The position numbers and the translations under genes are program-made. A stretch of 64,000 bases of DNA from Adineta vaga (lineage: Eukaryota > Animalia > Rotifera). The notes beneath the pieces were generated by a model. It was given only the letters and a program-made list of their open reading frames with translations. It had not been told where the DNA came from and did not search any database. Every line of letters starts with the position of its first letter. The first letter of the stretch is position 1. The stretch covers positions 5,890,001 through 5,954,000 of the forward strand of contig CP075493.1 in assembly GCA_021613535.1 (NCBI GenBank). The letters are read 5' to 3'. This document shows positions 1,145 through 56,540 of this stretch, piece by piece.

Positions 1145-4100
1145 CTATGATGATTTTTCAATTCGATGTTGGTCATCGAAACGATGATCATGAAGTTCCT
1201 GTCGACAAAGATCATATTCTTCTTTAGTTTGAAAGATATGTGCATGAAATGGTGAACCATATACATGTTCACCACTCCATTTAACTGATACAATATAATC
1301 TCCATGTTCAGTTGGATTATATCGACAAACAATTGTACGATCTTGCAAATGTTCACGTTGCATTTCGACACGAAAAGCACCTTTTGGACCACGAACTTTG
1401 ACTGTTAATTGTCCAGCACCTATACAAAAAGAAAGATTTCAGTTTGTAAATGAAAATAAAAGATTAGATTCCTATTCTTTACCTGCTCCTTTTGTTTCAC
1501 AGACGAAATGAGAGTGAAATGTTGATAGAACTCCATGTTCAATGCCTGGCCCATATACACGTACTTTATCTAAATATTTATTCAATTTCTTCGAAAATGT
1601 TTCTACGGCAATCATTGTATACATACTTGCATCAAGTGGACCGCTCACTTTAATCGTATATGGACTTCCTGATACATGCATTCCATTGTATTTAATCGTT
1701 AATAAATGTTTTCCAGTTTCTTCAGGTTTAATATATAATGAAAATGTACCATCACGATGATCAAATAATCTACAAATTGCTTTCTTATTCATTCCTTGAC
1801 AGTACACTGTTAATTCTCCTGGATCTGTTGTTCGTGTATCAATAAGACATGTTGATTCCTTCTCTACAATACCTACACGTAAACCATCACCTGAACAAAC
1901 GACTCGTGATGATGCATGATTATTCGTCACATTCGGTAAAACATTGACTTTAAATGGTGATCCACGAATTTGTCGTTCTGCCCATAATATATTCAATAGA
2001 TAAATACCTGTAAAATATTTGAGACAGAGACATGAAGAATTTACTATGATATGAATTATAGTTTTACCTGCTATTGTTGCTTTATAAGAACAAATGAAAA
2101 TATTTCGATTCTTTTCAATTTGTCGTATTCGAACATCAATATCCATTTGTTTTCCAGTTAATCGAACAGTTAATTGATTTGAACTTTGAACTGGTGCTCG
2201 TGAAGCATCAATAAAAAATTCAACTTCTTCATTCACTCGTGCTTCATATGAACCACGACCATAGATTCCTACTCGTAATGGTTCAGAACTAGCCGTTATT
2301 GCAATGATTTGTATAGGCATGTTTGGCAATAATTTTGCAGCATGTGTGATAGTCATATCATATTCACCATCTCGTCTAGCCGTAAAAGTTAGAGTAGATA
2401 ATGGACCTTGTTGATCAATACGCAATGGCATACAATTACTATTTACACCTCGAACATCAGCTTTCAAAATGCCTTCACAAAAAAACAACAAATTAATTTT
2501 GAGAATAAGGCGTTAACGAAAGACTTCTTTACCTGGTCCAGCTAGAGATGTATCAAAAGAAATCTTCTTTTCTTCATTTGTAATAACATGCATACAACTT
2601 TGTGCCTCAAATAATGCTTGCCATCCGCCAACAATTCGAATACGATCTATAGAGGGGGAAAAAACAATAGTTAACATCATATTTTTCATTTTTAGAAATA
2701 ATCAAACCTGGATTTGTAACAATCGCTTTAAATGGACTGTTAATAATATGTTTTCCATTCCATTTTATAATTATACTAAGAAAACCAACTTCAATGGGTT
2801 GATAAGTAACTTTAACTAATGTATTATTCATTCGATGAACAGTTGGATGAATAATTGAATTCGGACCTAATGTGAACAGAAAAATACAACTGATTCGATC
2901 AAATGAAATGCTCTTTTACCTTCCATATAAACTTGTAGATCACCTTGCATTTCATTAGTATTAATCAAAAATGTCGTTTCTTTTTCTTGTATAGCATGAT
3001 GTATTCCATCGCCATAGGCCGTTATGATACGTGCATTATTAACAGTTATTTTCATTGGTGTACCTATTTTATTTAATAAGAATACAATTGAAATTTTCTA
3101 TCAGCTATATTCTACCTGGCACAATATCTGAACCAAATTTTGCATTTAAAGTATGTATACCAGCTTCAATAGGTGTAAAACGTACCTTTGTCACCTTCGT
3201 TGTATCGTCAATCTCGCAAGGAACTAATCAAATCAAATGTCAAATATATATATTTCAATTTCAGAAGTAGACAAATCTGATCCTTACCAATTATATCTGA
3301 TGGTGAAGTAATTGAAACTTCAAGTGGTACATTGCCAGCATTATCCATATTAATTTCAAAAGTACTTTCTACGCCAACAAACATTTCTTTTGGCATTGTA
3401 CCAAATCGTACTTGTGATGGATCATAAACTTCTGTAAATAATGGACTACCTTGAATAGGTACATTACCAAAGACAATATCAATACGATGTTGACCTGAGA
3501 AAGACAAGTAGAATTTCATTGTTGTTGTGGTTTTCTAAACATTTTCTGTTACTTACCAACTTTCTTTGGTGTAAATTCACCCATATAATCTCCATTTGCT
3601 TGTGGAAATAATTTAACATTAACTGATTCACCTTTTGGACCTATGTGACAAAAGATGATCGGTTAAACGCACCGATGAATACAAAAAAAAACTTATTATT
3701 TCTCATACCAACAACTAATGAGCCACAAATAGCATGTAATAGTCGTCGATTTGGATCAAATAAGTTTAATATCTGTTTATCAATTAAACTTCGTAGAGCA
3801 TTGATAACTTGTTCATTAGTTGGGATTTGTGGTGGTGTAATTTCAAATAATTGAAACAATACCATTGCATGTCCTAATAAAATAAAAAAAGATTAACATA
3901 TTTTAATTACTTCAGTCTGGTATGAACAAAATTATAGTCTACAAACCATTTTCTTCATCCAATGTCAAATTTCGAATACGTTCTTGAGTCAATCTCAATC
4001 GAGCTGTAAGAAGTATTGTTAACGAAGTAACAAAAATTTGTGATGGAAATTGTAATAATTGTTCATACGGTTCAAGTAATTGAAATGAGATTACTTGTCC

Positions 4101-7100
4101 TAGATCAGTACGATTACCTGTTGAAAGATCTAAATTGAAAAAATAAACACAACGATTTATATCAACTGTAATCTTAACAAATCGACTTACTATAAACTTT
4201 AGATTTGATTGCTCCACGTTGTCCATGACAATGAACGCGAAAGATACCAAGATCACTCAAACGTAAACGATGGAAACATTTACCAGTGACTTGAACAACA
4301 TCTGATCGATCAATACGAATGGAAAATGGAGAGCCTTGAAAAAGAGATCAAAATCAAATTTGATCTGAATTTCGATTAGTTTCATACCTGTGATGGGTTT
4401 ATCACGATTAGAAATATTAACTAAATAGAAACCTGGTTCTTTTGGTGTGAAATTAATACGTATAAGATTGTCATTGATAATTGTCATTGTGGATGGAATT
4501 TCAACACTATCAAGAAGAACAACAGCTCGAATTTGCGAATTCGATGTTGATTTTGTATGAACTGAAATAATGTCAATAGAATGATTTGGGAAGATTTTTC
4601 TCTTCATTTAATTTACTTTGTATTACACATGGTGTATTCGTTAAACCGGAAAGAAGATGTTTATCATTAGAATCTTTGACTTGAATTAAATAGGGCGTAC
4701 CTAAGCAAAAAAGTAAATGATCATTTTATATCATTGCAATATTCAATATTTCGCCTACTCATAATCGGTGTTCCATTGCAAAGAAGATGTATATTATGTG
4801 TACCAACAACATAGGGACGAAATTTAAGATGCCAAATATGTGTATCTTTTGTTTGTACAAGTTTACATGGGATTGAGATTTCATTGCAGGATATTTGACC
4901 ACGTATATCGGGCTTTTCAGTGATAACTAAAATGCAAAGGGAAACTGTAGTTAAATTGAATGATTTCGAGAAAAATATACTACTTTCAAGACATATATCA
5001 TCTCCAACGCGAGGTATATCATTTGGTTCGATTTTATGTATATGAACAAGAGGAAATGTGGATAAGGTAGAGGGTGGGATGGGTGGTGGTAATAAGGAAT
5101 AGACATCTGTATCAATTGTTTTGCCTTGTATAAGTTGATTATTGAATAATAAACGAAGTTGATATCGACCAGGTTCACTTGGAATATATTGAATAAGATA
5201 TTCATGACTATTTAATTCATGTACATGACATCGACAGACTATTGTTGATGTTTGAGGTTTAATTAATTCTGCTTTCAATTGTCCTTGACCAGCTTGACTT
5301 GTATTTACTAGAGAATATACTGATAGTTAATACGATTTCGAATACAAACTAAAGAAATACCTTTGTATGCTACAGTCGTTCGTACAACAACAGGTTCTTG
5401 ATGTTCAGCAATGATTGATATTGCATGAATATCATATACATTTACATCAAATGGCGTACCTAAAATAAATACATTGTTTTTCTACAGTTTCTCACAACAA
5501 GACTATTTCAAATGTCATCAATGTAAACCCGATCATTCTATCTCTGTGTTAAGCGCTTCGAAAATGAAACCCTGTTTATGTTGTCGTCTTTCTTGATCAT
5601 TGATCAATTCATTTGTTTCGAAAGAAATCGAAATGATCAAAAGACAATCGTATATCAATTTGTTTCTGTTAGAAAATAAGATAGACAAATTCTCATCTAA
5701 TGTCAGTGAATAAACATTGTTTCTAAGCTGATTGTCATATCTTCAAAACAATGACGGAATAATCATTAATTGATAAAGATGACAAATCAGACACAGCTAG
5801 ATAAGAGGAGAGAAAGAAAAAAGGTGAGAAATCATTGGTTGTCAAGACATTTCTAACGAATCTTATTTCCTATATAATCATTCTATTTCGAATATATCAC
5901 AACAGAATTTCGATGAAAACGATGTCAACAGAAAAACAACGTCAACAACAAAGTCCATATGATTATTCAGTAAAACGATTATTATCTCAAGAAACAAGTA
6001 CAAATTCAACAGGTTTGATGAAATATACAATATATTGAGAAAAAAAGAAGTAATCGTCTATTTGTCTAGAACGATCGAGTGTTCTTCTATGTCCACCACC
6101 GAAAAATCGTGCTCGTCGTGCTCGAACTTATTTCGATGATCGATCTATTCAAGTTCTTGAACATGCATTCTTACAAGAACAATATCCTGATATACATCGT
6201 CGCGAACAATTATCGAATGAAATCGGCACAAGTGAAGCACGTGTACAAGTAAATGAAATGAAAGATTTGTTTGAAAATACATGATATATTTTTCAATTCA
6301 GGTATGGTTTCAAAATAAACGATCACGTTGTCGAAAACGTTTAATCAATAAAACAATGGCGAATGAAAATGATATTGAAAATGATGAAACAAGTACGAAA
6401 TCAGCTCATGAAACTTCATTTGAAGATTTACAAACACGTACACCGATGAGATCGATCCCGTCATCAAATATCTTACCATTTACACCAACTCCTATTCAGT
6501 CTGTTTTGGCTACACATTTTCCTTTTTTTCTTCAGCATTTCTATTAAAACCTTTTTTCTTTCTTCTCTCTCTCTCTTTGTTCTTTGTGTGTATATATATA
6601 TTATACATAATAAAAAGTGTATCCTACCGTTTATAGGTATGTTCTTATAGGCCATATAGATTCGATACATTCCCACTTTCACTGGTAAGATAGAAACGAG
6701 AAGTCGATTGGCAGATAATAGTTGAAGTTTATAAGGTATTTTCAAAGGTTTCAATGGATCAAATACCATGATAAAGAATTTTCCTTGATTAACTTTATCA
6801 ATATTACCTAAGATAAATAATGAAATGTGTGATAAATTCGATAGAAACGATTGTTGACTTACAGATAAAATGACATTTGTTAATGGGTTGAAAATGATTG
6901 AATGGCTCAAGTTGAACAGCATCAGGATTGTAAACTGGGAATATGTATGGACAATCTAGGAAGAGAATGTAGTGAAATGACCTTATCTGATAAAGAATAC
7001 AAATATCGTACCTAACATAGGTTGTCCCATATAATTCTTTAAGATAATTAAATAATCGCCTTCAAAAGTTGGCCGAAACTTGAGTAGAAACTTATCATCA

Positions 7101-10100
7101 TTTCTACGTGCGGCTTGCAAAGGTATTTTCATGGTATCTTTTGTGATATTTACATATACAACATGTGGTAGATCGACTATTTATCAAAATTAAAAATAAG
7201 TCAATATTTATTTGATGAAAATAACTTACTTATAAGATGTACATCATCATTAACAACTGGATACGCACGTTGTAAAACGATTTTGAATGGATATCGTCGT
7301 GGATCTATTAAAAGATGTAACGTTAGAGACGAAGAAAATGCTGAATATATTACTCACCGAATACAATATCAATTGGTTCTCCTCGATCAAATTTTTCTTT
7401 TAATAATTGAAATCGTTGTATTTCGGTGTCCGTTAATTGTGTATGTTGTGTTTTTGATTGATGTAGATCTTCTTTTTTAGTAGACACTTGATTACATTCT
7501 TCGATAATTGATGAATCTTTGGGTGGTACTGGCGTTTCAATCGATTTTGATGGGAAAGATTGTAGTCCATGAGATTTTTCTTGTTGTTGTGCAAATAGTA
7601 TTAATTCATGTTTTGAATAAATCGAACGTCCACGTTGTTCTGTTTCAGGTAAACGAGCTGGTTTTCCTACCGATACTATTAATATGCAAATTAAATTATA
7701 TCAAGATAAATTATCTAAATTGTCAATACATACGTTCATCAACATTTTCAGTAAAGACTTGTAAGGTTGTTTCAAGTACCGATATTCTATTGAATAAAAT
7801 AGATATCGAATGTAAACCTAAGAAAGTGTACACATATAGAAAAGAATAGAAATAAGAATATATTCTCTCATTTACCTGAAACAATCGGTTCAAATTGAAC
7901 AACAATTTGATGATTTGATTGTTTCTGAACGGTAATAGGTAAAGATCGATTATCTGGATCTATGAATAGGCAATGAACAAATTGTTAATTCGAGTAAAAG
8001 CTTGTTCAAGAAAGAAAGAAAACCTTTAATGATTATTTTTAACGATCCTTTTCCAGCTAGTGTTGGATCAATGAGAAAAGAATGCGTCTTATTTTGATAG
8101 ACTTTTGTAGGAAAATTCATTATTTGAATTGATGATGGATCAAATGCATGAACAATCAATGGACTACCACTAATCGATTCAGTTCCTTTTAATACATGAA
8201 TTTTAACAGATCCTATTAGAAATAATTCAAATAAAAATATTCATTTTAACAAGATATTCATCCAAGAAACATACCAATAATGAGTGGTTCATATGAAATA
8301 GATTTTCGACCATCCGGTAAGTATTCAATTTTACAAGGAATTTTTTCTTCATTAGCATCTAATCAATGATAAAAAAAAAGAGAATATTATAAATGAAACC
8401 CAATTATTTTTACCATAAATAACAATTTTGAATTTATCATCTGGATCTTTCAATGTAAATTTCGATGTTATACGAACACCAGGATCGATTAAATCAGTTA
8501 CATCAAGTACTTCGATTTTCGGAAGTGGTTCATCAGCTAAGATTGGCGATTCTGAACGGCCATTTGGCGTCACTTGAGTAATATTTTCTTTTTCTATTAA
8601 TGGTTGCTGTTGTTGTTGCTTACGTGCAATCGAAATCGATGATGAGTTTTCTGTTACTTCAGTTATAACTGGTAATTCTCGCTGTGAAGATGACGAATCT
8701 GATATACCATCGTTACTTGTATTTTGATTTAGTAGTAATTTATCATTAGGTGCAGGTGTTGCCACAGGTGATAATGGAACATAATCATCATCGAAAGCAA
8801 AGATAGGTAATAAAGCAAAACTATCACTTTCATCATTTGTAATACGTATCCAATGAGTTCCTTGAATGAGAAAGATGAATTTGAAAAATTTTCAAAATCA
8901 AATTTTGATTGTACTCACCAACACGAACTGGTGAAAGAGATATTTTCAATTCACCATTTTCATTTTTCGCATGTTTAAATGGTATGGGTTTATCAAATGG
9001 ATCTATGAAATTTGTAGGGGAAAAAAACGGAACATGTCTAGTTTGCATATTTAGTTGAAAATCATTTATTACCAGTAATCGTGATATCTAATTTATTATC
9101 ATTATCAACAACACCTTGAAATGTATGTTCAAGTACTTCTTTAACTTGAACACGAAGTACAGGATCAAATGTATTTTTCGCTCGAAATGCCATAACACGA
9201 ATAGGACAAATATCCAGAAGATTATTTTGTGTACGAATGAATACTTCATGTACTTCTAAACAGTAGAAAGAAAAACTATTCCTTTAACATTCAAATCTCT
9301 TTATTTTTCAGTGTATTATCATAATTAAGAAGAAATTAGTTTGATCTCGTACCAGTTCTAACAGGAATATATTCAATAACAAGATCTTTATTTAAATTTC
9401 GATAAAATGCTGCTGGAATTGTATGTGCCAATGGATCTAAACATTCAAAACAAAACAAATCTTTTCGATAAAATCGATTGCTTTCTTTTCATATAAAACC
9501 TTTAACAATGACATTAACATCTTCAGCAATCATTTTACTTTGATCAACAATAATTCTTGTTATATCTTCTACACCTCCATTTCTTAGTATATCAATTTCT
9601 TCAGCTACACAATGAATATCAAATAACTGTTCATTACTATCAGTCGTAACACTTAATTGATAATAATCTAGAAAGTAATATTTTGTAATACAATAAGTTT
9701 AAAAAAATCCTTTTTTTTCTTCCTATCAATGTCAATCTTACCGATGTCAGTTAAGGTAAAATATATTTTCCATTCAGATATATCTTTTTCAATGTCAATA
9801 GGAAATTCATCACCATTAGAACCTAGAATAAAAAAAGAAACGTATAAATTAAGATATAAAGATGAATGTGAGATGATCTTACATCTTAATTGAACTTTCA
9901 TATCATCACCTTTACAATTAATTGAAATGAAATTAGGCACATTTGGATGAACAATACGTTCACCATAAGCATTTCGTTCATATTCTAATGGTAAAATATC
10001 CATTGAAGCAAGAACTAATTGAGAATCATCAAGATCAGTTTGTAGGGAATATATGCCTGCTTTAACTGGTTCAAATTCAATACGCCAACGAGCACCTGAA

Positions 10101-13100
10101 TCTTGAATTCGTGTATGTTTAATAACAATCTCATCGGGATCTAATGAAGAAAATGTATTTTGAGAAGAAAACCTTTTCTTATCATTTCATCGAACATACC
10201 AATAACGAATAGATTAAAATCTTCATAAATATCTGTTAATGTTGATTCACATATTAACCAAGCTACTTCGCCTACTTTTGTACCTTCCAGTTGTCCACCA
10301 ATGAGAAATTCATGATCACCATCGTCTTCTTCACCTTCATCTTCATCGTCTTTCTCCTCTACATCCTCTGCTTCTTCATCTTCGTCTTTATTCTCCGAAA
10401 TACTTTTATCACTTGAAGATCGATCATGAACATTCATCAAAAACGGACTACCTTCAATAGGAGTTCCATTGAATGCAATAACAATCGAATGAACTCCTCG
10501 ATTTTCAGGTATAAAAGCAATATCAAATTTTCTCGCTTGAACACTTTTTAATTCAGCTGGTAACGTTCGTCGTCCATCACTGATTGTCACTTCTAAATGA
10601 CCCTCGCCAGCACCATGTGTATCAACAGAAAATATCGATGGAATATCAACAAATCCATCAGTAATTGAACTAACACGTATTCTATTTACATTACAAATAT
10701 CAACATGATATGTTGAGATTAATTTTTCATCATAAGTTATTGTGACTGTATGTTGACGTGCAATATTTGGTAGAAATGATATTTCGTAATGTTTCTTATC
10801 ATTTGATCTTGATGTCATTGTATGAGAAACAATACGTCCAGATTGAGTTTCTATAATAGCAATTGAAAGAAGATTAATATCAGCGACATCGACTAAAATA
10901 ATACAGAATTCGAAAATATTTTAAATGAACTTATAAGATTAACATTGAACTTACCAGTAAAAGTTATCGGTTGACCAACAATACCCGAAGATATTGGTGA
11001 GACACGAACTTGTTCACAATCAGTTCTTACAGGTACAGTTAATGTTCGTACTAAAAGAAGACATTACATCTTCTGCTAGTCAAAATTCCATTTCCAAACT
11101 TACTATTCGTTTCTCCATTGAATGTTATCTGTATGCTACATTCATCTGATGTTTCAGGTATAAATGAAATTTCATAAACAGATTTTGAAATTCTTGTTTG
11201 TTCATGCGTTAATTTATTTCCATTCTGTTTTATTTTGACTGATAATAGACCATTTCCAACCTCTGTTGTATTAACTAAAAGAAAAATAATTCAAATCAAA
11301 CAGCATGATAATTTTCATATAGAGAAAATTAATTTTACTTGTAAATTTACACGGTTGATGAGTGACAGCAAGTGGTAAATCACTGACACGTAGTTTACTT
11401 ATATCATAAATTTGACAATTTAATTTCGTTATAATTAGTTTTTTTTCTTCATCATGATAAAATCTTATCTCATGATCACCGATTTCCGTTGGCACAAAAC
11501 CGATCGTATATAATTTTGCTGCTAATTTTTCCACTTTACTTTTGAATTTCTTTCCTGAAGGCGTGACAATTTCAACTTGAATATTTGGATTAAACATTGA
11601 ATGTGTTTTCGGTTTAATTACTAATGATGTACGTTTATTAATCGGTGCATATTCATAATTTTCAAATGTTAATTCACTTGAAAATACATTACAAATAAAT
11701 GGTGATCCTATTTAATAAAAAAAAATAATAACAGAACTAATGCGTATAATTAATCAAAATAGTATTGTTTTGTTTTTTCTTACCATGAATATGAATGCCA
11801 TTAAGTTTAATTCGTACATAATGTGCACAAGGTTTATCTGGAAGAAAATTCACACGAAAACGAGCACCACCTTCATTTTGAACATAATTTGGAATATTTT
11901 TTCCATCTCGTGATATGGCAATTTCTAAATTTCCAGCACCTGAATCTGTTGCATCAACTAAAAAGAAAAATACGAAGTTTGCTAATTGAAATTAAAATTC
12001 GATTTTATTTACTAATAAATGATGTCGGTGTACCGACAGTTGTTGATGGTGGGAAATCAAACGTTTTGATTTTGTTTATGTCATATGATTGTGACGTAAA
12101 TGGACTACCATCAATAGGTATGTCATCATGTAGAACATCAATACGAAATTCACCTAGGTGAAATAATTAACTTTCAAACAAGAATAATTGAGACGATGGT
12201 CAACTCACCAACACGGTCTGGTGTATAAGTAACTTCATATCGATTTGGATCGATCTTTGTTGTAATACACGATATTAAATGATCATTTGGTCCTAGAAAA
12301 TATATCCATTCGAATCTCTAAAATCTTAACGCTTAGATCTTCACTTACGTATAAAGTTAGTAGAAAGAAAAATAGATTAGATATTAATTAAATCTATCAC
12401 CAAAATAAGCAATCGAGTATATATCAAACCTTTTATCGAACATTTCAATTTTCCAACATCATCATTTTGTGTTACAACAGTAAATGACGTTGGAATATTA
12501 ATGGGAATTGAACCAAGGCCTTTTCCCATCGCTATCACACGTTGATTTTCCATAACATTCACAGGAAAGGGACTTCCTAGGAAAAAAAACAACAACTTGT
12601 TTTTTTCAATATAATTAATATTTTTAAATCTCATTTCTTCTTCTTCTTCTTCTTCTACAAAATCTTATTAACAAAAACTACCTGGAGATGTTCGAGAGCA
12701 AATTGATGTTTTATGAAGAGCAAACATACAAATAACTTCTTCATACAAATTAAAAAGTGAAATTTTTCCGCTCGACTATTCTATCATTCACGTTTTCTTC
12801 ACCTCTCTCTCTCTCTCTTGTTCTCTCTGCCTCTCTTTCTCTCGCTCAGTTATGTTGATGCGCTTGAAAGAACTACATTTATGTTCATTTGCGCTTTTTT
12901 CGTTTTGCTTCGCCCGTCTTTATATTACTATGCATATATGCAACAAAATTTAATGATGGTACATTTCTTGACATAATGAAACAAGTAAAAAAAGGCAAAA
13001 CGTGCAAGCAAACTAGTAATCTTTTCGAGCTAATTGTTTGTTTTAAAAAGCCATTGACAATGTTGTTACGAGGTATCAAACGAATTATATGTAATATTAA

Positions 13101-15717
13101 CTATATCGAGATAAGATAAAGGTGAAAAAAGAAAGAAGGAAAGAGAGGTGTAACCTTGTCAATCTCAAGTATGTATATTAGATGATCACACACACGCTCG
13201 CGCGCGCACGCTCTTATCGATGTGTGACAAAAAAAATAGTAAAGTAGCTTCATTTAATTCGTTTTTTTTTCTCTAATGAAAAATATGTAAGTTACCCGGT
13301 ACAAGTTCGCCATTGAATAAGATATTGCAATGATGTATGACCGCTTTTTGTGGAAGAAATTGAACTTCATAGCAACTTTTACCAATTGGATTAATATCAT
13401 TGGGAATATTTTGACCAGAATAATTTACACTTATTTCAAGACTACCTTCACCTGCCATTGATGCATCGACTAGTATAGACAGATGACATATGTATCAGAT
13501 AAGCATTTTTTTCTTTCATTCGTGACTTACTTCGAAATTTCGTTGGCTTTCCTATTGCACTATCATTCGTTATTGGTGTAACAATAACTCTTTTTGGATC
13601 ATAACATTTTGCATAGAATGGACTTGCGAGTATGATTTTTCCATTTAATTTTACATGAATTCTGTAAGTTCCAATTTCTGTCGGTGTCCAATCTACTCGT
13701 AGTCCAGCAATAGTTAATAATGCTGATGGATTGATCGATTCGCCTTGAGGTGAAAATATTGTCACATCGCTATTTGATGAAGCACCTTGTGCTGCATCGA
13801 TAGTAAACCAAGTTTGTGCACCGAGTAATACTTGATTAAGACCAGGTCCATGGATTTTAATATCATCCGATGTAATCACTTGACATTCTTTTGGAAAACC
13901 TAAAATAATAATAATAATAATAATAATACTGTATTACTTTAATTGATTTGTTTTGTCTTCCTACCAGGAATATCATGTCCATTGAATTTGATCGAAAGTT
14001 TATGAAGATTATTCGAGGTGGGAAGAAATGTAAAATGAAATTTTGATTTGCCCAAAGGTTTGACTCGATTTGGTACTTGTCCATTATTAATAGCAACTTC
14101 TAATTGTCCCTCGCCAGCTTTTAATGCATCAATAGTAAATTCAGCTAGCTGATTAAAAATAATAAAACGTGGTATTTCCGAGACTATTATACGATTTGTA
14201 TCGTATGATTGAAGTATAAACGGCGAACCATATATCTCCATTTTTCGACTCGATCGTACATCTACACGATGCAAACCTGATCAAGGAAAAAAAACATATA
14301 GATGGTAAGAAGTGAAAGTCAGACAGATGTTATGTTTTTTTTCTATTCATGGTCTTTGCATCCGATCTATATCGCGCATCTTTTTCTGAAGGTAAGTTTA
14401 TATGCATATCAAATGATACAAAACGAAAGACATACTATTACAATATACATATATATATATATATAGACATTACAAAAAGAAGAAACCTGTACATGTACCT
14501 CTTTGATTTGATTTGTTCCTATCATAAATATACGTTGTCTTCTATCAATAAATGAACGTAACAAAAAAATTAATTTCGATTTCTTTCAGTTTAGTTTGAA
14601 TTAACTATTAAACCTTGTCAAGTGTATGTATATTTAAAAACTTCGTACATAATCGATGACCTCCTATGGTCACTAGTTTCTTTTTTCTTTTTTTTATGAA
14701 TATCAATTGACACGTTGATTAGTTATCTATTCACTCACCGATTTCATTCAACATATAGTCAATACGTGTCTTATTCGTGTTCAGTTGTGAACGTTGAAAC
14801 GAAACAGAACGACTTGATGGCGCTTGAAAGATGAAAGAAATCATAAAAGAACAATAACGAGGAATAGTTTTTTTTTCTCATCAATCAAATCATTTCGTAT
14901 TTTACCAGTTATGTTAATGTCAAATGATAATGATTGATTACAAATATCAAACGAAGCTGGATGTCCAATATGTATATTTGTCAAATGATTTGATACGATA
15001 ACTTGTTCCAAATCTTTGATATGACAAGAGAATGGACTACCTGAAAGTAAAAGAAATAACCGATCGATTAAGATTTCAAATCTAATCTAATCTAATCTAT
15101 CTAATTACCTGGTATCGCTAATCCATTAAATCGAATGTCAATTTTATGCAAACCACACTGTCGTGGTAGAAAGCTTACATCAAATTGAGATGTTCCATAT
15201 GAAAGAGCATTGCATAAAACTTGTCCATCTTGTACAAATACTTCCAGTTGTCCAATACCAGCTTTGATTGTATCAATATTAAAACGAACAAGTTGATTGA
15301 TATAACCATCATTTAAATTTGATACATTAACTTGATTTCTATCAAAAACATTGATTTTAAATGGATATTTATTAACAGGTTTTTCCGCAAGATAAACCAT
15401 CATTTGCATTTCACCGATTTCATATGGAATATAATATACCATCCATATTCCATCACCTTGATTGATCACTTCAATCAAATCGGAACGTTCTGATGGTTGT
15501 ATGACGATTTTAATTTCGTCCGTTGGATTATAAGATGAACGTGCATCGATGATAAATGATGTTTGAACATCAACTTGAGCCTGATGTAGACCATCACCGA
15601 AAATATTAATCGGCTGATCACCTTAATAATGGATTAGAAAGGAAAACAAGATATGATTTGTCTACTTCTAATCCTGAGAATATTTGACTTACGAATATTT
15701 AAACGTCGAATAAACAT
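1145..15717 (-). CDS. Large multi-exon filamin-repeat protein, jitterbug/FLN-2-like; no calponin-homology actin-binding domain seen
   Basis: Dozens of exons encode filamin Ig repeats (G.G.L.V.I...YxP...G.Y.I.I.F.G..I.GSPF). The C-terminal KVRVYGPGIEHGVLSTFHSHFVCETKGAGAGQLTVKVRGPKGAFRVEMQRE...GSPF resembles Drosophila Jbug. The putative first exon MFIRRLNI|gtaagt (ATG at 15717) splices in phase to DQPINIFGDGLHQA. The stop is at 1145. Confidence 0.88.
5913..6547 (+). CDS. Divergent Q50 paired-like (PRD-class) homeobox gene, 3 exons, nested antisense in a filamin intron
   Basis: The spliced homeodomain is RARRARTYFDDRSIQVLEHAFLQEQYPDIHRREQLSNEIGTSEARVQ|VWFQNKRSRCRKR, with an intron between residues 46 and 47 as is typical of PRD genes. 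There is an N-terminal eh1-like YSVKRLL and an AATAAA at 6609-6614. Confidence 0.9.
12682..12727 (-). CDS. Putative alternative first exon of the filamin gene (MFALHKTSICSRTSP), from an internal promoter
   Basis: ATG at 12727, then 46 nt ending in a phase-1 donor (CCAG|gtagtt) compatible with the acceptor of the GSPFPVNV exon. It lies in an enlarged intron, just downstream of a GA-repeat tract (12802-12845). Confidence 0.55.
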
Positions 15718-16813: not shown

Positions 16814-17715
16814 TTTGTCCATTTTCTTGATCTTTATCTCTACAAACTTATTGACATGTTACCTATTTTATTTCATAATCATATGCTTTTATCTTATATA
16901 AAAAAAAAGAGTGTCTGATCTACATCATAGATTTTGATGACAACTTTATCGTTCAGTCAAATATATATCAAAACCACTAATCTCCACTCGATTGAACACG
17001 TGAGATAACAGTTTTTTCATACATCATTTTGATAAAGAGTACAATCAAAAGGAATATATATATATGTAGATCGTACCATACAGAACATTAATTTTCTAAT
17101 AATAGACAATTTCGTTTTCAATTTCAACATAGACTAATTATAGTTTCTTGCCAATATACATACACAATTATCAATATATAGAGTAAATACATCAAGATTA
17201 AAAAATTAATTAGTGAAAATATTTCGAATAAAAAATTCTTAATATAGATCACTTCAAAAGTAATAGTCATTGAAACAATATCAAAGAAGTCTAGATTATA
17301 AAGAGATCTTTTCAACTTTAAATTGCCTTTTATCAATGATTGCACACAGACGAAATTTATCGAATCATTTGCAATGTAACGGATGACATGTTTCATAGAA
17401 GATAAAAGAAAAGTCCGATCATGTAAACTAACGTGTTCACTAAGCAGCTCATATACATAATTCAGTAGTCAAAAAATGGAAAATATACAAATAATATTGA
17501 AATAGAAGTGACTATTCTATTTTCTTTCATATATTCACATTCTTTAATTGAAACTATGAAGAAAAAAAACTCCCACTAACAGCTTTTTGCCTGCCATAGG
17601 AGAAAACAAATACTCCCGACATCATATTGTCTCACTTCGTATACTTTTCTTTAATTTTAACTGTTGACAAGAATTATTAGGCCGTTCGTAAAAGTCAGGT
17701 TAGTAGAGAGAGAAT

Positions 17716-18564
17716 ATGTTAATCGTACGGAAAGAATCGATTCGATCTTTAATATCTATATTCATCATATCAATTCTTATTGGAATACAGACGTATTCTC
17801 ATCGTTCAATTCTCTATATTTTCATTACAAATAATAGTTCAAGTTATTCGTTTACTATCGATTTCTATCCTAATATTGCTGTTTTGATTGAATTTCGTGA
17901 AACTGATCGAATCGTTAGTGTTATTCATAATATTAATCAACATATACCATCGACATGGCCTATTCAAATATTTCATGGTAAAGAAAATGAAAATTTTATT
18001 CGAAATTCTACTCTAAAATCCTTGATTACATCTGGTAAAGTATTTCTTACTTCGATTGATTCTTTTGATAATAAATTGAAAATCAATACTTTATTAACCG
18101 ATATGAATTTTTGGAAACAAGTTCGTGGTGAAAAAATTCTTTTTTTTCAAACTGATTCCATCATGTGTTCCAATTCTCCACATTCAATAACTGATTATCT
18201 TCAATATGATTATATTGGTGCTCCATGGGATCCAACGGGCTTTCCATTTAATAAAACATATCTTGTTGGAAATGGCGGATTTTCTCTACGTAATCGTCAG
18301 AAAATTTTAACATTACTTACCATCTTTCCCTACCAATCATTTCTACCTGAAGACGTTTGGTTTGCACAAAATTTTCATCGTGTTAATGCATCTATTGCTC
18401 CAGTGAAGGTTGCAAAGACATTTTCTGTTGAATCAATGTTCTATGAACGACCTGTTGGTGTACATCGATTTCCTTGGAATTGTAAGATTCGAAAAAAACT
18501 AAGTGAAACATGTCCAGAATCACTATTGCTTCTACCAATTAAAGGATGTTTAGGAAATGTATAA
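17716..18564 (+). CDS. DUF5672-domain protein (glycosyltransferase-like), intronless, with N-terminal membrane anchor
   Basis: 282-aa ORF with FWKQVRGEKILFFQTDS, YDYIGAPW, VGNGGFSLR, EDVWF and FSVE motifs characteristic of DUF5672, plus a hydrophobic N-terminus. Confidence 0.82.
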   Translation: MLIVRKESIRSLISIFIISILIGIQTYSHRSILYIFITNNSSSYSFTIDFYPNIAVLIEFRETDRIVSVIHNINQHIPSTWPIQIFHGKENENFIRNSTLKSLITSGKVFLTSIDSFDNKLKINTLLTDMNFWKQVRGEKILFFQTDSIMCSNSPHSITDYLQYDYIGAPWDPTGFPFNKTYLVGNGGFSLRNRQKILTLLTIFPYQSFLPEDVWFAQNFHRVNASIAPVKVAKTFSVESMFYERPVGVHRFPWNCKIRKKLSETCPESLLLLPIKGCLGNV

Positions 18565-40009: not shown

Positions 40010-40551
40010 AAAAAATGTGTTTACATAACACGGAAACGAATCTTTCTACTTACGCAGCAATCAAATCTATTCTCTCTCTCTCTCTCTCTTTCTTTTCGCA
40101 ATTGATTTTTCCTGTGTGTGTGTGTGTGTGTTTGTCTATGTGTACTTTTTTTTGTCATTTTGCAAAAAAAAACAACGATGTATATGGATGTCATTGTGTG
40201 TGGTTTTCTTTTTCTTTTCATCGCTCCGTACTCTTTAACACAGCTCATACAAATCTGTTGTTTGATTTCTCTGTTATTTTTGTTCCGACTAAATTTCAAT
40301 GATGATCGATTAAAATATAAGATTGAATGAAAACAAACGAACGAGATTTCATGACCTTGATATATCCAGGCAAAAACGAATGATATCAATTCATACATTT
40401 GTTTTTCTTATCCTATAGACTTTTGATATACATGTATACATATATCAAATCATCATCGTCGTCGACCTCGATTTGATTATCAGATAAAAATCATTCGTTC
40501 GAGTCGAAAAACGATAGTATATCGAATTTAGATATTTTAGATAACGTCATC

Positions 40552-41394
40552 ATGTTTGCTGCCGTAATTCTTTTTGCCATTGCATTGGGTTATGTTCATT
40601 CTCAAACTGTTCTGACTCTTCCACCATTACCATATGCATACAATGAACTTGAACCTGTTCTTTCTGAACATTTAATGCGATTACATCATGATAAACATTT
40701 TTTTACCTATACAAATAAAACAAATTTCGTTCTTAAAACAATGCTTAAGGATGCTCAAAATGCTGATATTTTGAAAGATATCGTTAATCAACCCATTGAA
40801 GTTATTCTTACACGATTAGGTGAATTACCTACTAATTATTCATTATCGATTCGACACAATGGTGGTGGTTATGTAAATCACAAACTATTCTTTTCATTAT
40901 TAAAAAAACCAACAGCTACAGTAGCAGAAAATAAACCAACCGGACCATTATTTGAAGCTTTGGAAAAAAGTTTTGGTTCATTTGAAAAATTTCGTGATTT
41001 ATTCTCTGCAGCTTCAGTGAATCTTTTTGGTTCCGGTTGGGTTTGGCTTTATATTGATGCACGAACAAAAACTCTCGTTTTAAATTTTACTGCCAATCAA
41101 GATAATCCGTAAGTAGCCAAAGTTTTAATCGTAATACATAAATCGTCGTTATTTTCTTCTAGAATTATGTTTGATAAAAATCATTTCGTAATTATGGGCA
41201 TTGATCTTTGGGAACATGGTTCGTCTTTTTATGATTGAAATTAATAAATGAACTAAATCGTTTGTCTTTTAGCTTATTACCCAGTTTATGAAAATCGTCG
41301 AGTTGAATATGTCGAAAACTTCTGGCGACTTGTCAATTGGTCTGTTGTTGGTGAACGTTATATTGAAAGTCAATCTAGACGAAGTGATTTATAA
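40552..41394 (+). CDS. Fe/Mn superoxide dismutase, bacterial SodA (Mn)-like, with signal peptide; 3 exons
   Basis: LPPLPYAYNELEP...LHHDKH...HNGGGYVNHKLFF...FGSGWVWL...TANQDNP|IMF...GIDLWEH|AYY...NRRVEYVENFWRLVNW. All four metal ligands are present. The N-terminus is MFAAVILFAIALGYVHS and the C-terminus is RSDL. Confidence 0.93.
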
Positions 41395-41514: not shown

Positions 41515-43221
41515 TTATTGAGAGAGAAGCATCAGTTCAAGGAAATTGATGAAAATTTCATGGCCATCAACAGATAATTCAATTTGATAACCTGAAAATT
41601 TTGGAAATATTAATGCTGTCATTGTATATTTTCCATCGTTAATAAACAATTCAACGGAACATCGATCAACGATTAATTGTAGTTTAAGTTTACCAGTTGT
41701 TAATGTTTCATCATCTAAAATCATATTGAAATGAAGAGAATAAGATGCATGAAAATCAACAAGTCCAGAATTTGATCGATCGAATTCAATTTGATTCTTT
41801 TCACCTATATAATTGATTTGAGTGTATTCACTTTTATTGAAATTTTGTCGAAGATTTAAATGAATATTAGTTGCTTTTGTGATATTATGAAATTCGCTAT
41901 TAAACATATAAACATCGCGTGAAATATTCAATAAAATATTCGAGGATAATTTTTGACGATAAAATGTAATGAATCGTTTCGAATAGGAATAAAGTTCATG
42001 AACGGGTATCTGTCGTAGATGATACATATTTGTAAATGAATTCCAATCAAGTTGTAATTGACGAGGTATGGTCATTTGTCCTCGCCATAATGGCGCTGTT
42101 GGTAAATCACGAGCATATTTCCAATTATTCATCCAAGAGATAAGTATTTGTCGATTATCATATCGTGGAACATTATGAAAGGTTATTCCAGCATAAAAAT
42201 CTGATCCATAATCAAGCCAATTGATTGTTGATGATGATTGTAGATTACGAAATGTAATACCATCGAATGTACCAATAAAATATTGCATACCCGATCCACC
42301 GGCTGGTGCACCATTTTGTACTGATACAATCAGAATCCATAAACTAGTTTGATTTTTTAATGTTGTTTGAGGAAACTCAATAAAATCTGGACATTCCCAA
42401 GTACCACCATGTGAACCATCGGTAAAACCAAAACGAGATATTAATGACCAATGAATCAGATCAACAGATCGATAGAATTGAATATGATTACCACCTGTCA
42501 GAACAAGAATCCAAGAAGCAGTTGGACTATGAAACGAAACTTTAGGATCACGAAATGGACGACGAACGATTTTATCACTAAATCGATCAGCAGTTGAAAC
42601 ATTGTTATATAATGGAATGATTGGATTCGATGAATATTTCGTCCATGTACGTCCTGAAAACGATCAATCTCGAACATATAGTTTAATAAAGAAACATATT
42701 CTTACCTCGATCAAGACTATATGCCATATGTTGTTCTTGCCATCTTTGTTTTTGCCATGTATAAATAGCAATCATCGGATGTATATTGGAATTCTTTTGT
42801 AAACCAGAAATATTCTTCCAATCAATTACAACAGATCCTGACCATATACCAACGATATCATCTTCAGGTTCTATTGCAATAGGTAATTCAGTCCATGTTA
42901 TTAAATCTCGACTAATTGAATGACCCCAATGCATATTAATCGCCATTGGTGCAAGAGGATAATGTTGATAGAACATATGCCATTCATCATGGTAATAAAC
43001 AAGTCCATTGGGATCATTTATCCAGTTTTTACTTGGTGAAAAATGAACTAATGGACGATATTGGTATACAGATATACTATTGTTCAACTATAAGAAATGT
43101 ATGTATATAACCGATAACCAATTAGATTATCTTACACTTTCTAGATCATTAGAAGACAATGCAATCGATGAACTAAATAAAAATAGATATATATATATAT
43201 AAGCGATATAATGGTAAACAT
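41515..43221 (-). CDS. GH32 beta-fructofuranosidase / levanase (SacC-like), 3 exons; the signal-peptide exon contains an (AT)7 tract
   Basis: WINDPNG, WGHSISRDL, WSGSVV, FRDPKV, WECPD, QYFIGTFDG, DYGSDFYAG and WMNNWKYA motifs, with a C-terminal beta-sandwich (LIVDRCSVELFINDG). Confidence 0.9.
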
Positions 43222-53932: not shown

Positions 53933-56540
53933 TTAACTACTACAGAAAGGTGTGAGTAAAATGAGATTAGAGCTGACTTCTGTAATTGGTGTTTCTTCAT
54001 AAGGTTTATCTTCCATATATAATGTTACCGACTTGTAATTGGACACTTTTGTTGTAGTGGCACTACTACTTACAGGTGCACTGACGGTAAATGTGAAGAT
54101 AGAATTTGTTATGTTGGTTCTATTTTCATAGAACATATTGGAAACCGTTAGTTGATCTGTAATATTATTGGAACTAGCAATTTCATAGGGTAAAATACAT
54201 AGTTCAGATGTATTCAATAATTTCAATGTATCTGTTATGCATAATGTAACATTCAGAGTAGTTGATGCTCGATTATAGATAGTAAACGTCATATTGAGAC
54301 TGCTATTACCAGTTATAATGTACGGTTGATTGATAATATCAATTTTGATTGTAGTAGGGGAAATGATTTGTGTCGTTTGATGTTGAAATTTGTTACCATT
54401 GCTAAGATTAATCATAGTTAACATTCGAAAATCAACATCAGGCACTTGAATTGGTGTTATGAAACCATTTTTTCCAAATGTTGTTGCTTGAAGTTCATTG
54501 ATAACAACACCAAGATTATTTATTAACTTAACTGAACCATTTCGAATATCTGCAGGTAAATCTTCACATACAGTAAGTAGAACAAGATCTGTCTGATTGA
54601 TTAATGGTGCATCTTTTAATGGCATATATTCAATAGCTTCTCTGTTATGTATTTCACATAATTTTGTTGTACAAGAAAGTGAACTATCACTACTTAGTTC
54701 AATATTATGCTTATCTTTATAATATGAACGAAGTTTCCATGTACTTGCTGTCACATTCTCTATCTTATATAATCGAAAAAAATTAGTCGAAGCTATAAGT
54801 GTTGGTGTAATAAGATTTTCCTTTGAATCAATAAGTTCAATAGAACCGGATAAATTTCTAGTTGAACTAATATCAATATTTAATGTAGTCGTTGTTTCAT
54901 CTACTTCGAATGTTAAATTGGTTGGTCCCGCTAAATTGATTGTAAGTAAAGATTGAGCTCGTTCTAAACGACGCATGACATAGTCTGCAGTGGCATTTGC
55001 ATCCCTTGATTGAATTCCAATGGTGAATCCACCAGTGGCCGAAGCCAAATCACGTCCATCGGACCCATCAAGTACTTCTTCACTAACAACTGTGGAAGAA
55101 AGTTGACGTTTTCGTCGACCATAGTATCCATAATTAACATAAAAAGAGTAAACACGAGCATCCAAGTCAAATGCTTTGTTAAGTACTTGACTTCTTAGGA
55201 AGGCATCTTTTGCTGGAGCATCCGTAAATGTGAATACACTAGATTCACGTTCACAGACACTTAATGCTGCATCTAATCCATGATAGTATAATTCAGGTAA
55301 ATCACCACCACCATTAGCTGTCAGTGCAGAAATAGCATCAATCAATACCTAGAATATACAAGACGTGAACTAAATCAACTCAATGAACTGTTCAAACCTG
55401 TGGGTCTGTTGTAATGAGAAGTGGTCCAAATTCAGGATCATTGAATGGAGATAAAATATAAGTTTTTGGACGAAGTATTGCAGAATCACCAGTTGTACTT
55501 TGTACAATTCGAATAGCCATTTGTTTGACGAGTTCAATATATGGAGACATACTACCTGTTGTATCAATTGCAATAGCAAGACTAGTAGTATCAAAGCCAA
55601 GAAAATGTCCAAATTTAGTATCACCCACTTTTCCCCATAGTTTAGATAGACTTTGTTTTGTTGCTTGGTAGGCAACTTGAGCTGCATCATAATGATACTT
55701 TGTTCCATGATCAGAAGTTGTGTCATCTTTGTTAATACCATAACCAACGGCTTCTTCATCTGTTGTTTTATCTTTCGAACCACCATGACTACATTTGCCT
55801 TTTGGTTTACTTGCAAGACCTGTCAGACCAAAATAACCACTGGTTAACCAACCATTTTCAATTATTTCAGGTAAGATATTATTCGTTGCACAACTTGCAT
55901 CAGTACAATTACTACATGTTGCCATGCTCTTAGGAGCATATTTACCAAGCGCAGTACCACTACCAATATTTGCATTCGTTTCACGTCGTCCAAGTTCAAT
56001 CCAATTTGAATGTGCATAAAAATCCTGCATTGTATGCATAGCTTCGCCGAATGAATTTCGTGCACCGTACATACTGTCTGCCTCCAAGTTCGTCTCAGCT
56101 GCATTTAATCGCATGGCTACCAATCCTGATCCTGCTGTAAAACTTTCACTATCGAAATGTGCTCGTTCGCTATAAAACTCTCTGCCATCAATAAAGACGT
56201 TTCCAGTGCAAATAGCATAAACAGCTGAACGAAATGTACTACTTATGTGAAGTCGTTTAACTTCGTTGTTAATCGTTTTAAAATCTGCTTTTACATTGGG
56301 ACAAACACCTGTCGAACTTCCAATACCATCTAATCCGATAGCGTCATGAACAGCTATCAAATAATCAGCTGCAATTCGTAGAAGTGCACATTCAGTTATG
56401 GCATAATGTGATGTACCACGCGATGACGTTCCTGTACTCGTCAAGGGAACAAATCCACCCCATCCAGCAGTAAAACATTCTCCATGACGAATCACTATTG
56501 CTATCCAGATAACAATAATATTCAATAAGTATAGCTTCAT
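53933..56540 (-). CDS. VWA7: VWA7-like secreted protein (Het-C-like N-terminal domain + VWA + Ig-like region)
   Basis: Signal peptide; HFDSESF, HTMQDFYAHSNWIELG and KPKGKCSHGG; MIDAS IDTTGSM; PFNDPEFGP|; GGGDLPE; FTDAPAKD; LASATGG. One certain intron. A possible extra last exon lies at 53874-53812. Confidence 0.85.

What the first reader, a model, noticed from the sequence alone, without database searches (positions are those of the whole stretch)
40552..41394. Bacterial SodA-type Mn-SOD apparently retargeted to the secretory pathway or ER lumen
Seen: a hydrophobic signal peptide (MFAAVILFAIALGYVHS-Q) instead of a basic mitochondrial transit peptide, four N-glycosylation sequons (NKT, NYS, NFT, NWS), a C-terminal KDEL-like RSDL, two spliceosomal introns and intact metal ligands. 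Known: FGSGWxWL, TANQDxP and the helical insert (NQPIEVILTRLGELP, like E. coli SodA NLPVEELITKLDQLP) are bacterial SodA features, whereas animal SOD2 has QGSGWGWL and NQDPL. GGG plus NQD indicates Mn specificity, and the animal extracellular SOD is normally Cu/Zn. Inference: a horizontally acquired Mn-SOD domesticated as an ER-resident or secreted antioxidant glycoprotein, a compartment/enzyme pairing that is not standard in animals and may matter for desiccation or radiation tolerance.
Basis: partly seen in the sequence, partly recalled or inferred. Interest (0 to 1): 0.78.

Follow-up and report, generated by a model that had tools for sequence, protein, structure and literature searches.

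The report
Rotifer ER-type manganese superoxide dismutase
A bdelloid rotifer has a spliced, well-expressed manganese-type antioxidant enzyme gene whose product is predicted to enter and partly stay in the endoplasmic reticulum; it likely belongs to an old group of such enzymes shared by invertebrates, fungi and protists, not to a gene newly taken from bacteria.

Summary
This is Adineta vaga I4U23_001880 (FUN_003320), a 244-aa Fe/Mn-SOD with two 54-nt introns spliced in RNA-type contigs, intact metal ligands, a signal-peptide-like N-terminus and a C-terminal RSDL. 41 of 42 complete bdelloid homologs end in [DE]L, against 1 of 118 prokaryote-type SODs. Only one of the four sequons (N178) is well conserved.

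An ER-predicted MnSOD is already described in aquatic animals (SOD2X, 2022), and the A. vaga genes were already called putative prokaryotic transfers with non-mitochondrial location (2020). The same signal-peptide plus KDEL-like design turned up here in chytrids, Naegleria, Rhizaria and a thraustochytrid. Nearly all share an insert that prokaryotic SODs lack. In the best tree the bdelloid clade sits among eukaryotic ER-type SODs (94/88 against prokaryotes), beside unnamed non-animal members (92/83) and outside animal SOD2X (100/99). AU tests reject neither vertical descent (p 0.20) nor a bacterial sister (p 0.13).

Verdict: a likely ER-lumen Mn-SOD of a wide eukaryotic group. Location, activity and origin are untested or unresolved.

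The parts
40552..41108 (+). Exon 1: signal peptide, Sod_Fe_N domain and first half of Sod_Fe_C
   Evidence: covered by RNA-type contigs from 40570
40552..40602 (+). Predicted signal peptide, 17 aa, likely cleaved before Q18
   Evidence: hydropathy; conserved in 84 of 100 Met-starting homologs; cleavage site inferred from the small-residue -3/-1 rule
40684..40710 (+). H45 (metal ligand) to Y53 (outer-sphere tyrosine); residue 50 is F where prokaryotic, animal and protist rows mostly have H
40723..40830 (+). N58-P93 segment with the insert typical of eukaryotic ER-type SODs (33-35 aa in bdelloids, median 31 in other ER-types, median 25 in prokaryote-type)
40861..40881 (+). GGG motif and H110 (metal ligand)
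41083..41091 (+). N178-F-T, the one well-conserved N-glycosylation sequon
   Evidence: 93 of 100 homologs
41098..41100 (+). Q183, Mn-type active-site glutamine of the NQD motif
   Evidence: 101 of 101 homologs
41109..41162 (+). Intron 1, 54 nt, GT-AG
   Evidence: spliced in contigs; 47 of 98 homolog ORFs end at this position
41163..41218 (+). Exon 2 with ligands D200 (41203-41205) and H204 (41215-41217)
41219..41272 (+). Intron 2, 54 nt, GT-AG
41273..41394 (+). Exon 3, end of Sod_Fe_C, C-terminal helix and stop
41380..41391 (+). C-terminal RSDL, KDEL-like putative ER-retrieval signal
   Evidence: 41 of 42 complete homologs end in [DE]L, 39 of 42 with R or H at -4

Best explanation
This spliced and transcribed A. 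vaga gene encodes a likely active manganese superoxide dismutase that is predicted to enter the ER by a cleaved signal peptide and to be partly held there by its RSDL tail, and it likely descends from an old eukaryotic ER-type Mn-SOD group rather than from a fresh bacterial transfer. Steps: (1) transcription and splicing, shown. (2) Entry into the ER and cleavage before Q18, inferred from sequence and conservation. (3) SodA-like fold, predicted. Mn binding by H45/H110/D200/H204 with Y53/Q183, and dimer formation, are inferred from family knowledge. (4) Glycosylation, most likely at N178, inferred. (5) KDEL-receptor retrieval, inferred and probably leaky, because Asp at -2 is a weaker signal than Glu, so some enzyme may be secreted as with MANF (RTDL). 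(6) Function: converting superoxide to H2O2 in the ER/Golgi lumen, inferred. The gene was present before the sampled bdelloids split and is kept as two copies in A. vaga. Whether bdelloids inherited it as a diverged SOD2X or took it from a microbial eukaryote is unresolved; I lean about 50:35 to the second, leaving 15 for a separate bacterial origin.
For: Splicing. Expression: the gene is FUN_003320 by its neighbours, levanase and kalirin, at TPM 249-532. Fold: mean pLDDT 92, pTM 0.87, with low confidence only in the N-terminal 20 residues and the last four; best Foldseek hits are bacterial MnSODs, target TM about 0.93. Tail: 41/42 end in [DE]L against 1/118 controls. The same design occurs in named non-animals: Naegleria KDEL, Boothiomyces KDEL, Synchytrium HDEL, Nonionella, Lapot, Hondaea, and in animal SOD2X, where 42/49 end in [DE][LF]. 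Shared insert: N58-P93 is at least 29 aa in 35/35 bdelloid, 47/49 animal and 57/58 non-animal ER-type rows, against 2/116 prokaryote-type. In separately fetched loci, 9 of 85 parsed have the long segment and all 9 have a hydrophobic leader and an xEL/xEV tail (about four distinct sequences); none of the other 76 ends in [DE]L. Tree of the catalytic core only, 48 rows: eukaryotic side against prokaryotes 94/88, bdelloids with seven non-animal ER-type rows 92/83; an 80-row quick tree agrees (96 and 94). Holding all ER-type rows together gives a likelihood 1.8 higher than the free tree. A Didymodactylos homolog falls in the bdelloid clade at 100/99.
Against: No localisation, activity or metal data. 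RSDL does not match the Prosite ER motif, and only 2/42 bdelloid tails do; in human reporter tests -2 strongly favours Glu (PMC2140024). The best single identities of the core are still to prokaryote-type rows (48.7%, against 47.3% for non-animal ER-type and 42.6% for SOD2X). AU tests reject neither alternative origin (p 0.20 and 0.13). The bootstrap had not settled (0.944) and neither key branch is starred. Two plastid-type rows and, in the 80-row tree, one row I had labelled bacterial fall on the eukaryotic side. The bdelloid insert is about 4 aa longer than in other ER-types, so a separate origin of the insert is possible. RNA contigs do not cover the first six codons.
Confidence: 0.7

Rival explanations
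1. Origin rival A: an ordinary vertically inherited animal SOD2X that diverged fast in rotifers.
For: Same architecture as SOD2X. AU p 0.20 against the careful tree, and a likelihood 2.6 higher than the poorer quick tree. Not flagged as HGT in the published A. vaga table. No second, animal-type SOD2X named as a rotifer protein appeared among the best 120. GC3 of 0.15 matches neighbouring genes.
Against: It falls outside the 100/99 SOD2X clade. It has 0% of the animal state at 8 of 10 SOD2X-diagnostic columns. It lacks the N-terminal extension and the WW...HDEL end of SOD2X. It scores lowest on the animal profile (210 bits, against 254 and 227).
Confidence: 0.35
2. Origin rival B: a bacterial SodA acquired by an early bdelloid, which gained its signal peptide, introns and RSDL on its own.
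For: Best BLAST and PDB hits are bacterial. The highest pairwise identity is to prokaryote-type rows. It was called putative prokaryotic HGT in PMC7730656. The next gene is an HGT-flagged levanase. AU p 0.13.
Against: It carries the eukaryote-type insert. The mature start (Gln then x-L-x-LPPLPY) matches protist ER-SODs. Both ML trees place it away from prokaryotes. No prokaryotic genome hit exceeded 42% identity among 15 loci. Animal SOD2X also has bacterial SODs as its next-best hits, so best-hit logic does not show transfer.
Confidence: 0.15
3. Location rival: the enzyme is mainly secreted (gut, body fluid or surface mucus) and RSDL retrieves it only weakly.
For: Asp at -2 in 36 of 42 tails. 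The RTDL protein MANF is both ER-held and secreted (PMC4731063 abstract). PMC7730656 predicted cytoplasmic or extracellular/membrane location. One A. steineri paralog has lost the tail (P0087).
Against: The tail keeps a fixed length and an [RH]-x-[DE]-L pattern across the clade, which is hard to explain without selection for receptor binding. The RTDL protein ARMET localised to the ER, although it stayed there without the motif.
Confidence: 0.25

Closest known systems
SOD2X, ER/secretory MnSOD of aquatic animals (Hewitt and Degnan 2022, PMC9524095; Vullien et al., PMC11721785)
   Same: Signal peptide, Sod_Fe_N plus Sod_Fe_C, SodA-like core, N58-P93 insert, KDEL-like tail. My animal set includes their Branchiostoma and Capitella sequences.
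   Different: Outside the SOD2X clade in ML trees; FGSGW instead of FGSGY; no N-terminal extension; tail [RH]xDL rather than HDEL; a conserved N178 sequon. Rotifers are not mentioned in the main text of either paper.
Non-animal signal-peptide + KDEL-like Fe/Mn-SODs (Naegleria, chytrids, Rhizaria, Hondaea, many unnamed)
   Same: Same architecture, same mature start, same insert; nearest rows in both trees; best-scoring profile for 35 of 35 bdelloid rows.
   Different: Nearest rows are unnamed, support is moderate, the bdelloid insert is about 4 aa longer, and the tail has Asp at -2 more often. I found no paper naming this as one group.
Bacterial SodA-type MnSOD (Geobacillus 6pro, Bacillus 2rcv, E. 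coli 1vew)
   Same: Fold, ligands, GGG and NQD motifs; about 39-41% identity.
   Different: No signal peptide of this kind, no xxDL tail, segment N58-P93 about 10 aa shorter, no introns.
Mitochondrial SOD2 of animals
   Same: Same superfamily and metal ligands.
   Different: Scores 136 bits against 174 for bacterial SodA; QGSGWGWL/NQDPL motifs absent here; uncharged hydrophobic leader instead of a transit peptide.
Arabidopsis MSD2, apoplastic Mn-SOD (bioRxiv 10.1101/2021.12.01.470564, search listing only)
   Same: A Mn-SOD reported outside mitochondria, in the apoplast.
   Different: Not compared by sequence here; relationship untested.

Membership tests
Fe/Mn superoxide dismutase (PF00081 + PF02777) | Both domains above the Pfam cut-off | tested here: met
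   67 and 47.6 bits in exon 1, 29.5 in exon 3
Fe/Mn superoxide dismutase (PF00081 + PF02777) | His/His/Asp/His ligands, DxWEHAYY, gateway Tyr | tested here: met
   H45, H110, D200, H204, Y53
Fe/Mn superoxide dismutase (PF00081 + PF02777) | Superoxide dismutase activity | not testable with these tools
   needs an assay
Mn-specific, SodA-type | GGG motif with the Gln supplied by the C-terminal NQD (rule recalled from SOD literature) | tested here: met
   GGG in 35/35, Q183 in 101/101; top fold hits are MnSODs. Cambialistic behaviour is not excluded.
Animal SOD2X | Signal peptide and predicted ER/secretory location | tested here: met
   heuristic only; DeepLoc and SignalP not available
Animal SOD2X | Nested within the strongly supported metazoan SOD2X clade | tested here: not met
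   SOD2X is 100/99 without bdelloids; 8 of 10 diagnostic residues absent
Animal SOD2X | Orthology as a diverged sister to SOD2X | tested here: inconclusive
   AU p 0.20, log-likelihood 16.2 lower
Mitochondrial SOD2 | Basic transit peptide and SOD2 motifs | tested here: not met
Mitochondrial SOD2 | Grouping with animal SOD2 in a tree | not tested
   no full-length animal SOD2 was among the stored proteins; only two SOD2-like fragments served as outgroup
Bacteria-to-bdelloid HGT gene | Nested among bacterial sequences | tested here: not met
   a sister position is not rejected (AU p 0.13)
Bacteria-to-bdelloid HGT gene | Integrated in the animal genome, not contamination | tested here: met
   introns spliced, kalirin neighbour, 18-Mb contig, host-like GC3
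KDEL-receptor client | Prosite [KRHQSA]-[DENQ]-E-L | tested here: not met
   RSDL; 2 of 42 bdelloid tails match. Many non-Prosite motifs work, and the RTDL protein is ER-located.
KDEL-receptor client | Retrieval shown by deleting the tail | not testable with these tools
   needs a localisation experiment

The most novel reading that the evidence does not exclude
Eukaryotes have an ancient ER-lumen Mn-SOD group spanning Opisthokonta, Discoba and Sar, of which animal SOD2X is one branch, so SOD2X is not an animal invention. Bdelloids hold a copy taken from a microbial eukaryote in place of SOD2X, and its two copies are the highly expressed, radiation-responsive Fe/Mn-SODs of A. vaga that protect the ER proteome.
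Probability: 0.25. Interest if true: 0.65.

Novelty: new variant of a known kind. Interest (0 to 1): 0.42.

Why it matters
The ER lumen is not usually credited with its own superoxide dismutase (recalled), and my searches found no biochemical test of any SOD2X. If the reading holds, an ER Mn-SOD is an old eukaryotic feature that vertebrates lost, which changes the published view that Sod2X arose in the last common ancestor of animals (PMC11721785). It would also reassign a highly expressed A. vaga SOD, and probably the X-ray-induced FUN_017932, from 'bacterial HGT' or a generic MnSOD to the secretory pathway. A. vaga is culturable and radiation-resistant, so it is a practical place to test the compartment and role.

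Tried and rejected
No whole genome is held for this window, so synteny and the presence of other SODs could not be checked directly. 'Four glycans': rejected as a family trait; only N178 is conserved and N55 partly. Contamination: rejected (introns, neighbours, GC3). Mitochondrial SOD2: rejected on leader and motifs. The FastTree run (159 rows) and the AU tests against the quick tree (p 0.56 and 0.46) were superseded, because the quick tree was 13.5 log-likelihood units below the careful one. The 80-row careful search did not finish. The profile test is biased: the non-animal profile is broad (held-out prokaryote and animal rows also score second-best on it) and was partly gathered with a bdelloid query, so it shows only that bdelloids fit neither the animal nor the prokaryotic profile. 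The non-animal ER-type set was chosen by its tail, so tail counts within it are circular; the insert and the tree are not. Genome and metagenome scans gave no closer relative than 42% and 47%. Lack of contig cover at 40552-40569 is not taken as evidence. ESM Atlas top clusters were mostly eukaryotic (Arthropoda, Rotifera, Chlorophyta, Ascomycota, Haptophyta) and were used as leads only. No complex prediction was run, since the homodimer is textbook. Earlier-findings look-ups were empty.

Full report
Observation. The window is AT-rich animal DNA with short introns. The finding is a three-exon gene on the + strand: 40552-41108, 41163-41218, 41273-41394, 244 aa, the same sequence as Adineta vaga I4U23_001880 on an 18-Mb contig. 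It lies between the end of a kalirin-like gene and a GH32 gene. The same neighbours flank FUN_003320 in a published table, which gives TPM 249-532, log2 fold change +0.35 in spaceflight (FDR 5e-5), bacterial best hits and no HGT flag. Each intron is skipped in contigs of 6 of the 8 runs laid, and one contig runs from 40584 through RSDL-stop. The first six codons are not covered by any listed RNA-type contig.

Catalytic part. Both Pfam domains pass their cut-offs. H45, H110, D200, H204, Y53 and Q183 align with the conserved positions of solved MnSODs and are near-invariant in bdelloid homologs. The model has mean pLDDT 92, with low confidence only at the two ends, and matches bacterial MnSODs best. 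GGG plus NQD points to Mn (rule recalled). Activity is untested.

Targeting signals. Among 103 bdelloid-clade rows, 84 of 100 that start with Met pass a crude signal-peptide rule and have almost no basic residues. 41 of 42 with a complete C-terminus end in [DE]L, against 1 of 118 short prokaryote-type SODs. Position -4 is R or H in 39 of 42 and -2 is D in 36. RSDL is not a Prosite match. In human reporter tests any residue but Pro works at -3, Asp works less well than Glu at -2, and the RTDL protein ARMET/MANF is in the ER (PMC2140024, passages) yet is also secreted (PMC4731063, abstract). I therefore infer leaky retrieval. Of the four sequons only N178 is well kept (93/100); N55 is 43/99, N226 9/53 and N95 1/99.

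What is already known. Hewitt and Degnan (PMC9524095; passages, section 5 and supplement rows) described SOD2X, a predominantly ER-predicted MnSOD of aquatic animals. Vullien et al. (PMC11721785; passages) kept the name, listed many losses including vertebrates, and placed its origin in the last common ancestor of animals. Neither main text mentions rotifers. Lyall et al. (PMC7730656; passages and section 2.2) already reported two pairs of putatively prokaryote-derived, non-mitochondrial Mn-SODs in A. vaga, and extracellular or membrane Mn-SODs in several algae. So both the compartment pairing and the HGT idea are in print as predictions.

What is added here. A search of 50%-identity representatives returned many non-bdelloid Fe/Mn-SODs with a hydrophobic leader and a KDEL-like tail. 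Named ones are amphioxus, a sponge, Naegleria lovaniensis, two chytrids, Nonionella and Lapot and Hondaea, that is Opisthokonta, Discoba and Sar. A Branchiostoma query gave about 50 animal SOD2X rows, with none named as a rotifer among the best 120; the set includes sequences used by Hewitt and Degnan. The segment N58-P93 is 33-35 aa in 35/35 bdelloid rows, at least 29 aa in 47/49 animal and 57/58 non-animal ER-type rows, and at most 26 aa in 114/116 prokaryote-type rows. In 85 parsed of 95 separately fetched loci, the 9 with the long segment (about four distinct sequences) all have a leader and an xEL/xEV tail. Paper searches for this wider group or for ER retention of the bdelloid enzyme found nothing on point; the library lacks most subscription journals.

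Origin. Trees used only the catalytic core, without leader or tail. The careful tree (48 rows chosen from the 80; LG+C20 PMSF; bootstrap not settled) separates 12 prokaryote-type rows from the 36 others at 94/88, holds animal SOD2X at 100/99 and bdelloids at 100/99, and joins bdelloids to seven unnamed or organism-less ER-type rows at 92/83. AU tests against it: bdelloids plus animals 16.2 lower, p 0.20; bdelloids plus prokaryotes 20.4 lower, p 0.13; all ER-type together 1.8 higher, p 0.55. Bdelloids lack the animal state at 8 of 10 SOD2X-diagnostic columns. Their best single identity is still to prokaryote-type rows (48.7% against 47.3% and 42.6%), which explains BLAST-based HGT calls. The balance favours membership of a eukaryotic ER-type group (about 0.85), with transfer from a microbial eukaryote slightly ahead of vertical descent. 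Neither is shown. The gene is old in bdelloids: Didymodactylos, Rotaria and Adineta all have it, and intron 1 is conserved.

Stress link. A. vaga has a second copy, I4U23_019274 (68% identical over exon 1, tail RADL). Two gene pairs listed in a supplement (FUN003208/018056 and FUN003353/017887) put the partner of FUN_003320 near id 17925 by interpolation. This is close to FUN_017932, the Fe/Mn-SOD reported as constitutively high and over-expressed after X-rays in hydrated animals (PMC10809525, passages). The match is an inference: that paper's Additional file 2 was too large to read, and the PMC12220480 table is cut at 7,614 rows. No desiccation induction of this gene was seen in what I read.

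Verdict. A real, expressed gene; likely an ER-lumen Mn-SOD that works like SOD2X but does not nest in the animal SOD2X clade. New variant of a known kind. Interest 0.42, mostly for the wider eukaryotic group and the testable compartment, not for a new bacterial acquisition.

Noticed in passing
window 41515-43087 (-): GH32 levanase-like gene directly downstream and convergent; flagged as HGT in the published table (FUN_003319, best hits Bacillus, TPM about 5-6).
   Followed up: partly
window 40535-40551 (+): A TTTTAG ends 11 nt before the ATG; it could be a trans-splice or intron acceptor. RNA-type contigs of three runs start at 40570, which may be an allele bubble.
   Followed up: no
window 40699-40701 (+), residue 50: A His conserved in 86-98% of other groups is Phe here and in 62 of 99 bdelloid rows; effect on activity unknown. 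Residue 208 is Pro in most bdelloids where others have Leu.
   Followed up: partly
P0057 (I4U23_019274): Second A. vaga copy with RADL tail; probably FUN_017932, the X-ray-induced Fe/Mn-SOD, by gene-id interpolation.
   Followed up: partly
P0087: An Adineta steineri paralog has an extended C-terminus without the xxDL tail, a candidate fully secreted form.
   Followed up: no
P0222, P0229, P0234: Three 790-855 aa unnamed proteins with an N-terminal Fe/Mn-SOD domain and a long C-terminal part; they form one clade.
   Followed up: no
P0403-P0427: A large group of unnamed leader-bearing SODs with KAEL-like tails, some ending in EEV, EEM or EEI.
   Followed up: partly
window 53936-56540 (-): Long ORFs of a secreted-looking protein with a vWA-like stretch and higher GC (0.38); label from reading only.
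   Followed up: no
window 1148-15622 (-): Many exons of a filamin-like repeat protein; label from reading only.
   Followed up: no
window 17707-18561 (+): A 285-aa single ORF resembling a glycosyltransferase-like domain; not searched.
   Followed up: no
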